The position numbers and the translations under genes were made by a program. Positions 39,612 to 49,036 of a stretch of 64,000 nucleotides of DNA are shown in pieces. Every line of letters starts with the position of its first letter. Position 1 is the first letter of the stretch. The DNA lies in assembly GCA_030608565.1 (NCBI GenBank), contig JAUWDY010000001.1:15457-79456 (forward strand), written 5' to 3'. Below the pieces are notes generated by a model. The model ran no database searches. It was given only the letters and a program-made list of their open reading frames with translations, and had not been told where the DNA came from. The stretch is from Candidatus Bathyarchaeota archaeon. GTDB lineage: Archaea; Thermoproteota; Bathyarchaeia; Bathyarchaeales; Bathyarchaeaceae.

Positions 39612-39815
39612 ATGAGCGAAGAGGTTGGTTCCGGATTAACTATAGCCGAGAAAATCTCTGGGTTAATAGCTCTCCTCATAGGGGCGACAATCATCTATTT
39701 TACGTATGCTAGTCCCCCTTCGGGATATGTTAAGCCTTTCTCTGGCATCTTTTTAGTCGCTGGCTTTGTATTAGTAGCAGTCGGCATTGTTTTAGTGTTA
39801 GCAAGGGCTGAATAG
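39612..39815 (+). CDS. small membrane protein (two predicted TM helices)
   Basis: 67 aa with two hydrophobic stretches. Confidence 0.45.
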   Translation: MSEEVGSGLTIAEKISGLIALLIGATIIYFTYASPPSGYVKPFSGIFLVAGFVLVAVGIVLVLARAE

Positions 39816-39824
39816 ACATAATTT

Positions 39825-39955
39825 TGGCGCCGCCGGACGGATTCGGACCGTCGACCCACTGGTTAACAGCTTCAACCTCTGATAGAGATTCTATCAAAGT
39901 CAGTTGCTCTACCTAACTGAGCTTTCGCCCACGTTTATGTTGCGTGTACGGCGGC
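39825..39955 (-). tRNA. tRNA-Asn(GTT) with two putative non-canonical introns; CCA encoded
   Basis: Hand fold: exons 39955-39947 (GCCGCCGTA), 39922-39901 (GCTCAGTTAGGTAGAGCAACTG) and 39870-39825 (G CTGTTAA CCAGT GGGTC GACGG TCCGAAT CCGTC CGGCGGC G CCA). Introns of 24 nt (between positions ~9/10) and 30 nt (~30/31). Confidence 0.7.
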
Positions 39956-40134
39956 TTGATTTTTCAACGGCGCCGTTTAATTTGACACTTTGTAGCGATA
40001 TTTAAAGTTTGGTTGCAGAGACGCCGAGCTTCAGATGTGCACGCATAATATACAAGTGGTTCCTTTAGCGAAAGAGGAATTAGAAACCTTTTTGATGTTA
40101 AAGAACTATTCAATTAACCAAAGGAGGTACTATC

Positions 40135-40953
40135 ATGAGTTGGGGAATTAAAAACCGTTTGGCACGACTAATACAACCTGATGGTCATTGCTTGTTTTTG
40201 CCCATAGATCACGGATATTTTCAAGGACCTACCACAAAATTAGAAAAGCCAGGCGAAACTGTCAAACCACTTCTCCCTTATTGCGATGCGATTTTTGTCA
40301 CGAGAGGAGTACTGCGTTCATGTATAGATCCGAATAGTAAAACACCCATCATTCTAAGAGTATCTGGGGGTACGAGTATTGTTGGAGAAGATCTGGCCAA
40401 TGAAGGAATAACCACATCTCTAAAAGAAGCTATACGTCTTAATGCGTCAGCCGTAGGTCTTTCTATCTTTGTTGGCAGCAAATATGAACATCAGACATTA
40501 TTAAATCTTGCAAGACTCGTTGATGAGGCTGAAGAATATGGAATTCCTGTAATGGCGGTTACTGCCGTAGGTAAGGAGTTGGGAAAAAGAGAAGCCCGTT
40601 ATCTTGCTTTATCCTGTAGAATTGCCGCTGAACTGGGTGCCAGAGTAGTAAAAACTTACTGGTGTGAAAACTTTGAAAAGGTTGTAGATGGTTGTCCTGT
40701 TCCAGTCGTTATAGCGGGTGGACCTAAAGTAGACACGGAACTTGAGGTATTTGAATTTGTTTATGATGGTATTCAAAAAGGCGCTATAGGTGTAAACCTA
40801 GGAAGAAACATTTGGAAAAATGATTACCCAATTGCAATGATCAAGTCTATAAGAGCAGTAGTTCATGAAAACGCCACCGCAAAAGAAGCAAATGAATTGT
40901 TTGAGAGTGTCAAGAAAGAAGAAACAGGGCAGTTGCTGGCATCATGCGAGTAG
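40135..40953 (+). CDS. class I aldolase of the DhnA/LsrF family (FBP aldolase class Ia / ADH-synthase-like)
   Basis: 272 aa. Schiff-base Lys context ARVVKTYW, plus GGPK..., GRNIW. Confidence 0.75.
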   Translation: MSWGIKNRLARLIQPDGHCLFLPIDHGYFQGPTTKLEKPGETVKPLLPYCDAIFVTRGVLRSCIDPNSKTPIILRVSGGTSIVGEDLANEGITTSLKEAIRLNASAVGLSIFVGSKYEHQTLLNLARLVDEAEEYGIPVMAVTAVGKELGKREARYLALSCRIAAELGARVVKTYWCENFEKVVDGCPVPVVIAGGPKVDTELEVFEFVYDGIQKGAIGVNLGRNIWKNDYPIAMIKSIRAVVHENATAKEANELFESVKKEETGQLLASCE

Positions 40954-48668: not shown

Positions 48669-48881
48669 TGGTCGGGCGGGCAGGACTTTCATGAAGTGAA
48701 ACCTTCATTTTGAAATCGCCGAGCTGAGATTAGCCCTGCAGCTCTCCTGCGACAATCCGGTGTCTGCATGTATGCTTGGTAGGCTGGGTGACACCTACCG
48801 TGGGTGGATGTCTACAGCGTCTTCGTCAGCTGGTTTTGGCCAAGCTGGCTCGGAAGCTCTACCAAGCTGAGCTACCGCCCG
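48669..48881 (-). tRNA. tRNA-Tyr(GTA) requiring four putative introns (213-nt gene, 77-nt mature incl. CCA)
   Basis: Hand fold: exons 48881-48851, 48818-48812, 48761-48746, 48714-48708 and 48684-48669. Joined they give CGGGCGG TA GCTC AGCTTGGTA GAGC T TCCGG CTGTAGA CCGGA TTGTC GCAGG TTCAAAA CCTGC CCGCCCG A CCA. It has C1-G72 and A73 as in archaeal tRNA-Tyr. Confidence 0.7.
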
Positions 48882-48944: not shown

Positions 48945-49036
48945 TGGTGGACCGGGCGGGATTTGAACCCGCGGCTTCCGCCTTTTTCGGCTTGGCACGC
49001 GAAGGCGGCGTTCATACCAAACTGAACTACCGGCCC
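48945..49036 (-). tRNA. tRNA-Ala(CGC) with a 14-nt canonical (37/38) intron; CCA encoded
   Basis: GGGCCGG TA GTTC AGTTTGGTAT GAAC G CCGCC TTCGCG[tgccaagccgaaaa]A GGCGG AAGCC GCGGG TTCAAAT CCCGC CCGGTCC A CCA. The G3:U70 identity pair is present. Confidence 0.85.

What the first reader, a model, noticed from the sequence alone, without database searches (positions are those of the whole stretch)
39825..39955. tRNA-Asn with two non-canonical introns and an unusual T-loop
The exons GCCGCCGTA | GCTCAGTTAGGTAGAGCAACTG | GCTGTTAACCAGT... assemble into a standard archaeal tRNA-Asn(GTT) with G73. This needs removal of a 24-nt insert between the acceptor/8-9 region and the D-stem, and of a 30-nt insert inside the anticodon stem (about 30/31). 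Both inserts contain internal hairpins (cacg..cgtg; gatag..ctatc). The T-loop reads TCCGAAT, with C at position 55 instead of the near-universal U. The same 30/31 position is used in the neighbouring-style tRNA-Tyr, which suggests a lineage-specific intron insertion hotspot.
Basis: seen in the sequence. Interest (0 to 1): 0.55.

Follow-up and report, generated by a model that had tools for sequence, protein, structure and literature searches.

The report
Two-intron tRNA-Asn with helper leader
This is a real, conserved archaeal asparagine tRNA gene split by two small protein-spliced introns, which is ordinary for its Bathyarchaeia lineage, but its transcript leader carries a spare strand that probably holds the tRNA's 3' end while the first intron is cut out.

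Summary
The gene is on the minus strand, window 39955-39825, 131 nt. Removing 24 nt (39947-39924) and 30 nt (39900-39871) gives a 77-nt tRNA-Asn(GTT) with G73 and an encoded CCA.

- **Introns.** Both sit in perfect hBHBh' splice motifs. The first lies at 8/9, not 9/10; the second lies at 30/31.
- **Only Asn gene found.** It is the only tRNA-Asn found in a 98.5%-complete genome. That genome encodes two EndA paralogues (one without the catalytic His) and RtcB.
- **Conservation.** Of the 28 relatives' genes I could resolve, 21 have the 30/31 intron and 9 the 8/9 intron, with compensatory changes in the splice helices.
- **C55.** It is real. This is the only tRNA in the genome that has it. It is shared by 10 related genomes and recurs in other archaea and in bacteria.
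- **30/31.** Tyr, Phe and a Met tRNA of this genome use it too, but it is a published position, not a lineage-specific one.

New here: a 10-nt leader element (39974-39965) pairs with the acceptor 3' strand plus G73-C74-C75. In folding models it is needed for the first splice helix to form. All 7 tRNAs of this genome with introns at or before 10/11 have such an element, against 0 of 31 others.

This scan has noted the same leader element before on other DNA. I found no paper describing it. No spliced RNA was seen.

The parts
39999..40006 (-). Archaeal TATA-like box TTTAAATA, 44-51 nt upstream of G1
   Evidence: Read directly in the sequence. The same ACTTTAAATA-type box lies at the same distance in the orthologues. 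Its promoter function is inferred.
39965..39974 (-). Leader element GGCGCCGUUG. It is complementary (10 bp, 2 G-U) to the acceptor 3' strand C66-C72 plus G73 C74 C75, and acts as a surrogate acceptor strand.
   Evidence: The MFE fold pairs it with the 3' end. The pairing probability of the BHB-1 central helix is 0.81-0.83 with it, 0.00 without the leader, and 0.04 with the 10 nt shuffled. It is present in all 10 genomes that have the 8/9 intron.
39948..39955 (-). Exon 1, tRNA nt 1-8 (GCCGCCGU)
39924..39947 (-). Intron 1, 24 nt, at position 8/9. The hBHBh' has h = A-1 G1 C2 / G10 C11 U12, H = C3-C6 / GGCG, bulges GU|A and AA|A, and h' = CACG/CGUG.
   Evidence: The strict BHB scan gives H 4/4, outer 3 and inner 4. 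Across the 7 distinct orthologue sequences, 92.9% of cells are paired and 3 pairs have compensatory changes.
39901..39923 (-). Exon 2, tRNA nt 9-30 (D arm and the 5' side of the anticodon stem)
39871..39900 (-). Intron 2, 30 nt, at position 30/31. The hBHBh' has h = A23 G24 / C32 U33, H = C25 A26 A27 C28 / GUUG, bulges UG|A and AA|G, and h' of 9-10 bp.
   Evidence: The strict BHB scan gives H 4/4, outer 2 and inner 10. Across 21 orthologues, 96.5% of cells are paired, 7 of 11 pairs have compensatory changes, and 0 of 500 shuffles reach this.
39825..39870 (-). Exon 3, tRNA nt 31-76: anticodon GUU at 39867-39865, T arm, acceptor 3' strand, G73, and encoded CCA at 39827-39825
39846..39846 (-). 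C55 in the T-loop (UCCGAAU), where U55/pseudouridine is nearly universal
   Evidence: It is the only tRNA of this genome with C55. It is shared by 10 related genomes. It is identical in an independent 192-nt contig from a public run.

Best explanation
This is the working asparagine tRNA gene, and the only one found, of a cold-seep or marine-sediment Bathyarchaeia-type archaeon.

1. Transcription probably starts about 20 nt upstream of G1, downstream of a TTTAAATA box (inferred).
2. In the precursor, the leader element GGCGCCGUUG pairs with the acceptor 3' strand plus G73-C74-C75.
3. This leaves the true 5' strand (C3-C6) free to pair with GGCG near the 3' end of intron 1. That completes a bulge-helix-bulge at 8/9.
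4. A second, independent bulge-helix-bulge at 30/31 is built from nt 23-28, intron 2 and nt 32-33. The two motifs use different nucleotides, so they can coexist.
5. The splicing endonuclease (two EndA paralogues, one lacking the catalytic His, so the broad-specificity alpha-beta type) cuts after the second nucleotide of each 3-nt bulge. RtcB joins the exons.
6. The real acceptor stem then forms and the leader is trimmed. The result is a 77-nt tRNA-Asn(GUU) with G73 and a genome-encoded CCA.
7. Because position 55 is C, this tRNA cannot carry pseudouridine-55.

Shown here: the sequence anatomy, both BHBs, covariation, the enzyme genes, the lack of another detectable copy, and the thermodynamic dependence of BHB-1 on the leader.

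Inferred: the transcription start, actual splicing, the order of events, and the helper role of the leader.
For: - **Gene identity.** The spliced product is called tRNA-Asn(gtt), ARAGORN score 120.3.
- **Splice motifs.** Both introns have perfect hBHBh' motifs. The same geometric rule recovers the canonical 37/38 introns of Ala(CGC), Leu(CAA) and Thr(GGT).
- **Covariation.** Intron 2: 96.5% paired, 7 of 11 pairs compensatory, 0 of 500 shuffles, and slid partners reach only 18-50%. In H, the pairs CAAC/GUUG, CAGC/GCUG and CGGC/GCCG all occur. Intron 1: 92.9% paired, 3 compensatory pairs.
- **Conservation.** Among 29 resolved genes, 22 have the 30/31 intron and 10 the 8/9 intron, the latter in 4 families of the order.
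- **Copy number.** No other tRNA-Asn was found in the 98.5%-complete genome. The same holds for a single-contig genome of the same genus.
- **Enzymes.** The two EndA paralogues are 30% identical, each has the N- and C-terminal domains, and one lacks the His of the Y-H-K triad. RtcB is present.
- **Leader in this gene.** The MFE fold pairs the leader with the 3' strand. P(H of BHB-1) is 0.81-0.83 with the leader, 0.00 without it, and 0.04 with it shuffled.
- **Leader in this genome.** All 7 tRNAs with introns at or before 10/11 have a 7-10 nt leader complement: Asn, Ser-UGA, Ser-CGA, iMet, Glu-UUC, Gln-CUG and Gln-UUG. The 31 other tRNAs have at most 6 nt.
- **Leader in orthologues.** Asn: 10 of 10 genomes with the intron, against 6 of 19 without. 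iMet 4/5 intron: 14 of 15 against 0 of 13. Ser-UGA 8/9 intron: 8 of 8 against 0 of 15.
Against: - No spliced RNA was seen. The public RNA-labelled contigs show only the unspliced sequence and may be DNA.
- Six genomes keep the leader element without the 8/9 intron (G022, G008, G010, G016, G017, and a degenerate one in G006). One iMet gene with a 4/5 intron lacks the element.
- The relatives are not independent samples.
- In three relatives, helix H of intron 1 has a C-A mismatch.
- The leader helix (10 bp) is predicted to be more stable than the native 7-bp acceptor stem, so how it is displaced after splicing is unexplained.
- In the thermodynamic MFE the central helix of BHB-2 is not the top prediction. 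Its support comes from covariation.
Confidence: 0.85

Rival explanations
1. The leader element is a relic, not a helper. It would be a leftover duplicate of the 5' acceptor strand from the event that inserted the intron, with no role in splicing.
For: In Ser-UGA, Ser-CGA and Gln-CUG the element is an exact copy of the 7-nt acceptor strand. Six genomes keep it without the intron.
Against: - In Asn and iMet the element extends 3 nt further to pair with N73-C74-C75. That extension is not a copy of anything at the tRNA 5' end.
- Its changes between genomes are mostly C to U opposite G. These destroy identity with the acceptor strand but keep pairing.
- It is retained across four families of the order.
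- Folding models make BHB-1 depend on it.
Confidence: 0.2
2. The locus is a decaying tRNA pseudogene that has picked up two insertions. The cell would decode Asn with another tRNA that was not assembled.
For: Standard tools do not call the gene. The genome is in 45 contigs. C55 departs from the tRNA consensus. No spliced RNA was seen.
Against: - The exons are identical or nearly so across genera, while the introns vary with compensatory changes.
- Both inserts are exact BHB introns.
- No second copy was found in this genome, nor in a single-contig genome of the same genus.
- The promoter box is conserved.
Confidence: 0.03
3. The first intron sits at 9/10. It would then be removed through a relaxed motif rather than a full BHB.
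For: The mature sequence is the same for 8/9 and 9/10, because an A flanks both sides.
Against: With 9/10, the four nucleotides that should form the central helix (G4-G7 against GCGA) pair at only one position. With 8/9, all of h, H and h' form (and direct reading), and the 8/9 register holds in all eight aligned orthologues.
Confidence: 0.05

Closest known systems
[quoted passage not shown] 2007, 2008; reviewed in PMC4090602; detected by tRNAscan-SE 2.0, PMC8450103)
   Same: They have short introns at non-canonical positions, including 30/31, each in a bulge-helix-bulge, with up to three or more per gene. They are removed by EndA and joined by RtcB. They occur in lineages whose endonuclease has two different subunits.
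   Different: The lineage here is Bathyarchaeia-type. The held reviews give 3/4, 20/21, 22/23, 25/26, 29/30, 30/31, 45/46, 53/54, 56/57 and 59/60 'etc.', and I could not confirm that 8/9 is on a published list. The reviews and papers I read do not describe the leader-encoded surrogate acceptor strand.
Trans-spliced split tRNAs of Nanoarchaeum equitans and Caldivirga, and permuted tRNAs
   Same: Sequence outside the mature tRNA (leaders and trailers) base-pairs to build the structure that the splicing endonuclease needs (PMC4090602, PMC4033280).
   Different: In those cases the extra strands pair with each other and themselves form the BHB. Here the leader pairs with the tRNA's own 3' acceptor strand, away from the BHB, and acts by freeing the 5' strand.
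Four-intron tRNA-Tyr of the same window (48669-48881, minus strand)
   Same: Same genome, and the same 30/31 position for its first intron. BHB introns are found there as well.
   Different: It has more introns, none before position 30, and no leader complement (5 nt).

Membership tests
Archaeal BHB (protein-spliced) tRNA intron | A 4-bp central helix flanked by two 3-nt bulges on opposite strands, with the splice sites after the second bulge nucleotide | tested here: met
   Both introns have H 4/4, plus outer and inner helices. The same rule returns 37/38 for the canonical introns of this genome.
Archaeal BHB (protein-spliced) tRNA intron | Removal restores a canonical cloverleaf tRNA | tested here: met
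   ARAGORN calls tRNA-Asn(gtt) with score 120.3 after both introns are removed. It makes no call on the unspliced gene.
Archaeal BHB (protein-spliced) tRNA intron | The motif helices are kept by compensatory change in relatives | tested here: met
   Intron 2: 7 of 11 pairs compensatory, 0 of 500 shuffles. Intron 1: 3 of 10 pairs, 14 of 500 shuffles, from only 7 distinct sequences.
Archaeal BHB (protein-spliced) tRNA intron | The splicing endonuclease and RtcB ligase are encoded in the genome | tested here: met
   PF01974 hits at C12:66622-66861 and C28:40260-40514. PF01139 hit at C33:55822-57132.
Archaeal BHB (protein-spliced) tRNA intron | The intron is actually excised in vivo | tested here: inconclusive
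   Only assembled contigs of four public runs could be laid. They show no joints and only the unspliced sequence.
Heterotetrameric (alpha-beta)2 splicing endonuclease | Two paralogous subunits, one catalytic (Tyr-His-Lys) and one structural without the triad | tested here: met
   Two proteins of 203 and 202 aa, 30% identical, both with the PF02778 and PF01974 domains. In the pairwise alignment the His of the first (DHAPY) is matched by ETAKY in the second. The catalytic assignment is by eye.
Heterotetrameric (alpha-beta)2 splicing endonuclease | The specific loop insertion that gives broad substrate range (PMC5829648) | not tested
   No structural model or alignment to characterised enzymes was made.
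tRNA-Asn | Anticodon GUU in a 7-nt loop, with a standard acceptor, D arm and T arm | tested here: met
   The exception is C55 in the T-loop.

The most novel reading that the evidence does not exclude
The 10-nt leader element is a true cis-acting conformational switch. It would belong to a general, undescribed class in intron-rich archaea: a surrogate acceptor strand that sequesters the tRNA 3' strand, so that introns lying within about 11 nt of the 5' end can form their bulge-helix-bulge. Without it such introns could not be spliced or maintained. A second, less likely novelty concerns the elbow. This tRNA might work with a G18-C55 pair and no pseudouridine-55, or C55 might be edited to U.
Probability: 0.55. 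Interest if true: 0.65.

Novelty: new variant of a known kind. Interest (0 to 1): 0.5.

Why it matters
- **Annotation.** The gene itself shows that standard tRNA finders can miss an essential tRNA. Genomes of this lineage would then look as if they lack tRNA-Asn.
- **Splicing mechanism.** The leader element speaks to a practical question in archaeal tRNA splicing: how an intron whose splice motif must borrow the acceptor 5' strand can compete with the very stable acceptor stem. If the helper role holds, it explains which positions near the 5' end can host introns. It also sets an order of processing, with splicing before 5' trimming. It gives a simple sequence signature for finding such introns.
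- **T-loop.** C55 is a natural, conserved exception to the most universal tRNA modification site. It offers a test case for what pseudouridine-55 is needed for.

Tried and rejected
- **Default tools on the unspliced gene.** ARAGORN and Rfam at gathering threshold give no call.
- **An extra intron in the leader.** I looked for one between the leader copy and the true 5' end, in registers 1/2 to 4/5 and 7/8. No BHB forms in any register, and the strict and relaxed scans give no candidate there (and hand check). Rejected.
- **Copies of the introns elsewhere in the genome.** BLAST of the precursor against its own genome gave only two 17-nt chance hits. There is no sign of intron transposition. The tRNA-Phe 30/31 intron does share the ACU...GAGG-H'-AA layout.
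- **A second tRNA-Asn.** One hit at C16:8076-8218 scores 100.1, which is threshold noise. It is AT-rich, has no CCA and needs two unlikely introns. Rejected.
- **RNA evidence.** Contigs of four runs were laid. A 192-nt contig of X17 (labelled RNA-Seq, probably DNA) spans the whole unspliced gene with no differences. X18 contigs cover the 3' exon and part of intron 2, and one contig comes from a relative that has a different intron 2 and no intron 1. There are no joints, so this says nothing about splicing or expression.
- **Literature.** I could not search for '8/9' or '30/31' as terms. Sugahara 2007 (PMC1852824) is not held.
- **A wasted call.** One search printed nothing.

Full report
**What is there.**
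The feature lies on the minus strand of the window, between two plus-strand ORFs (39612-39815 and 40135-40953). Read 5' to 3' it consists of:
- GCCGCCGU (39955-39948)
- a 24-nt insert (39947-39924)
- the D arm and the first four anticodon-stem bases (39923-39901)
- a 30-nt insert (39900-39871)
- the rest of the tRNA down to an encoded CCA (39870-39825)

ARAGORN and Rfam at gathering threshold do not see it. With relaxed thresholds Rfam aligns model positions 9-63 at 25.9 bits, with a 32-nt insertion in the anticodon arm. After both inserts are removed, ARAGORN calls a 77-nt tRNA-Asn(gtt). Its score is 120.3, against 101.7 with only the second insert removed.

**Splice motifs.**
I wrote a scanner for the bulge-helix-bulge geometry. 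It requires a 4-bp central helix H, two 3-nt bulges on opposite strands, cuts after the second bulge base, an outer helix h and an inner helix h'. The geometry comes from established knowledge (Marck and Grosjean 2003). It is validated here because it returns 37/38 for the canonical introns of tRNA-Ala(CGC), Leu(CAA) and Thr(GGT) of this genome.

Both inserts are full hBHBh' motifs.
- **Intron 1.** H = C3-C6 with GGCG, bulges GU|A and AA|A, h = A-1 G1 C2 with G10 C11 U12, h' = CACG/CGUG. This works only in the 8/9 register. The 9/10 register gives the same mature sequence but no central helix.
- **Intron 2.** H = C25 A26 A27 C28 with GUUG, bulges UG|A and AA|G, h = A23 G24 with C32 U33, h' of 9-10 bp.

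The two motifs use different nucleotides. Each strand of the future D stem is engaged in a different motif.

Strict motifs occur at about 4.6e-4 per site and length in this genome.

**Is it the working gene?**
The assembly is 1.76 Mb in 45 contigs and 98.5% complete.
- ARAGORN with introns and the Rfam tRNA model at E<=1 find no other Asn tRNA.
- I excised every combination of up to three strict BHB candidates across both strands of the whole genome, 10.2 million variants. The only credible tRNA-Asn was this locus. A 100.1-score hit on C16 is threshold noise.
- A single-contig genome of the same genus has one locus only.
- The genome encodes two EndA paralogues, each with both domains and 30% identical to each other. 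One lacks the histidine of the catalytic triad. That is the two-subunit architecture linked in the literature to broad substrate range (PMC4090602, PMC5829648).
- RtcB is present.

**Relatives.**
The precursor was searched in 40 related genomes: the same genus, 19 further genera of the family, and 11 other families of the order. I solved the gene structure in 28 of them, which makes 29 genes with this one.

| Feature of tRNA-Asn | Genes with it (of 29, this one included) |
|---|---|
| 30/31 intron (28-40 nt) | 22 |
| 8/9 intron (20-34 nt) | 10, in four families |
| further introns at 49/50, 59/60 or 63/64 | some |
| no intron | 2 |

The architecture is therefore old and ordinary for this order.

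On an alignment of 21 intron-2 regions, 96.5% of cells pair and 7 of 11 pairs show compensatory change. No shuffle out of 500 reaches this, and slid partners give 18-50%. In H the pairs CAAC/GUUG, CAGC/GCUG and CGGC/GCCG all occur. For intron 1 there are 7 distinct sequences. 92.9% of cells pair and 3 pairs are compensatory. Three genomes have a C-A mismatch in H.

**C55.**
- **Sequence.** The T-loop reads UCCGAAU (C55 = window 39846).
- **This genome.** Among 32 confidently solved tRNAs of this genome, 29 have UUC, 2 have CUC and only Asn has UCC. The tRNAs solved later all have U55.
- **Relatives.** Counting this genome, C55 is present in the tRNA-Asn of 11 genomes in six genera of the family. 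It is absent from the nine other resolved genera of the family and from all other families sampled.
- **Wider distribution.** A pattern scan of one genome per prokaryotic species found the same C55 tRNA-Asn in many named Bathyarchaeota MAGs, in Micrarchaeota and Thermoplasmatales, and in various bacteria (Bacilli/Tenericutes, Muribaculaceae, Planctomycetota).
- **Reading.** C55 is rare but recurrent. It is not an assembly error, because an independent 192-nt public contig is identical.
- **Consequence.** A U55C tRNA cannot be pseudouridylated by Cbf5 or Pus10 (PMC1616971). That a G18-C55 pair replaces G18-psi55 at the elbow is my inference only.

**The 30/31 'hotspot'.**
In this genome 30/31 is used by Asn, Tyr, Phe and a CAT-anticodon tRNA on C23. 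Position 29/30 is used by Ser-GCU, Gly-UCC and Ser-GGA. The Phe intron has the same layout as the Asn intron (ACU, stem, GAGG, H', AA). But 30/31 is on the published list of non-canonical positions (PMC4090602), so the site is favoured rather than lineage-specific.

**The leader.**
I had not been asked about the leader, but it bears on how intron 1 can work. BHB-1 needs C3-C6, which in the mature tRNA are locked in a seven-GC-pair acceptor stem.

- **The element.** Nine nucleotides upstream of G1 the leader reads GGCGCCGUUG (39974-39965). It starts about 25-30 nt after the TTTAAATA box, near the expected transcription start. It is complementary to C66-C72 plus G73 C74 C75.
- **Folding models.** RNAfold pairs it with the 3' end and forms H and h' of BHB-1. 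The pairing probability of H is 0.81-0.83 with the native leader, 0.00 when the transcript starts at G1, and 0.04 on average when the 10 nt are shuffled.
- **This genome.** All seven tRNAs with an intron at or before 10/11 have a 7-10 nt leader complement: Asn 8/9, Ser-UGA 8/9, Ser-CGA 3/4, iMet 4/5, Glu-UUC about 8/9, and Gln-CUG and Gln-UUG 10/11. The 31 others have at most 6 nt.

| Orthologue set | With the intron: leader element present | Without the intron: leader element present |
|---|---|---|
| Asn, 8/9 | 10 of 10 | 6 of 19 |
| iMet, 4/5 | 14 of 15 | 0 of 13 |
| Ser-UGA, 8/9 | 8 of 8 | 0 of 15 |

- **How it varies.** The element changes mostly by C-to-U opposite G, which keeps pairing but not identity with the acceptor strand. 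In Asn and iMet it also pairs with N73-C75, which no duplication of the 5' strand would give.
- **Reading and caveats.** I read it as a surrogate acceptor strand that holds the 3' strand while the true 5' strand is used for splicing. The relatives are not independent. Some genomes keep the element without the intron. How the 10-bp helix is later displaced is unknown.
- **Prior knowledge.** I found no description of it in the reviews and papers I could read. Earlier notes of this scan report the same element on other archaeal DNA. I looked these up after finding it here.

**Expression.**
Public runs that hold this DNA are cold-seep and marine-sediment metagenomes. Laid contigs from four RNA-labelled runs show only unspliced sequence and no joints. 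This neither supports nor refutes splicing.

**Verdict.**
This is a genuine, conserved two-intron tRNA-Asn gene. As a kind it is known. The position of the first intron is refined to 8/9. It carries a real and lineage-conserved C55. It also has a leader helper element that deserves a bench test.

Noticed in passing
window 48945-49036 (minus): tRNA-Ala(CGC), with G3-U70, a canonical 14-nt intron at 37/38 and an encoded CCA. ARAGORN without intron mode labels it 'tRNA-???'.
   Followed up: yes
window 48669-48881 (minus): tRNA-Tyr(GTA) with its first intron (32 nt) at 30/31 and at least two or three more. My best ARAGORN solutions need three (score 113.8) or four (109.9) introns. Its leader has no complement to the 3' strand.
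   Followed up: partly
G000 C9:15957-16045, C19:20916-21002, C19:19320-19423: Three other tRNAs of the genome (Leu-UAA, Thr-GGU and a Met-CAU) have C54 in the T-loop (CUCAAAU or CUCGAAU) instead of U54.
   Followed up: no
G000 C25:84259-84363: The tRNA-Phe(GAA) 30/31 intron (28 nt) has the same layout as the Asn 30/31 intron: ACU, a stem, GAGG, the four bases complementary to nt 25-28, then AA. This could reflect common origin or shared constraint.
   Followed up: no
L004 (G001), L019/L021-L024, L026/L027: Orthologous tRNA-Asn genes carry further introns at 59/60 (24-26 nt), 63/64 (about 31 nt) or 49/50 (30-31 nt). One gene of the same genus has three introns.
   Followed up: partly
L015, L021-L024 (G022, G008, G010, G016, G017): These tRNA-Asn genes keep the 9-10 nt leader complement and a conserved 14-nt spacer (AAGCUGUCGAUCGA-like), although they have no 8/9 intron. 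This could be intron loss with the helper retained, or a second role for the element.
   Followed up: no
G000 C4:15290-15423: Initiator tRNA with a 42-nt intron at 4/5. Its BHB is partly built from leader nucleotides -4 to -1 (CCGU), so splicing must come before 5' end trimming. Its leader element GGUGGCGGGG pairs with the 3' strand plus A73 C74 C75.
   Followed up: partly
window 39612-39815 (plus): A 67-aa ORF ends 9 nt from the tRNA 3' end, convergent with it. Similar sequence follows tRNA-Asn in several relatives, so the neighbourhood seems conserved.
   Followed up: no
G000 C12:66403-66861: The presumed catalytic EndA gene lies about 140 nt from tRNA-Cys(GCA).
   Followed up: no
window 39892-39923, run X18 contig 7: A metatranscriptome contig from a cold seep carries a relative's tRNA-Asn gene, unspliced, with a different 30/31 intron and no 8/9 intron.
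   Followed up: no
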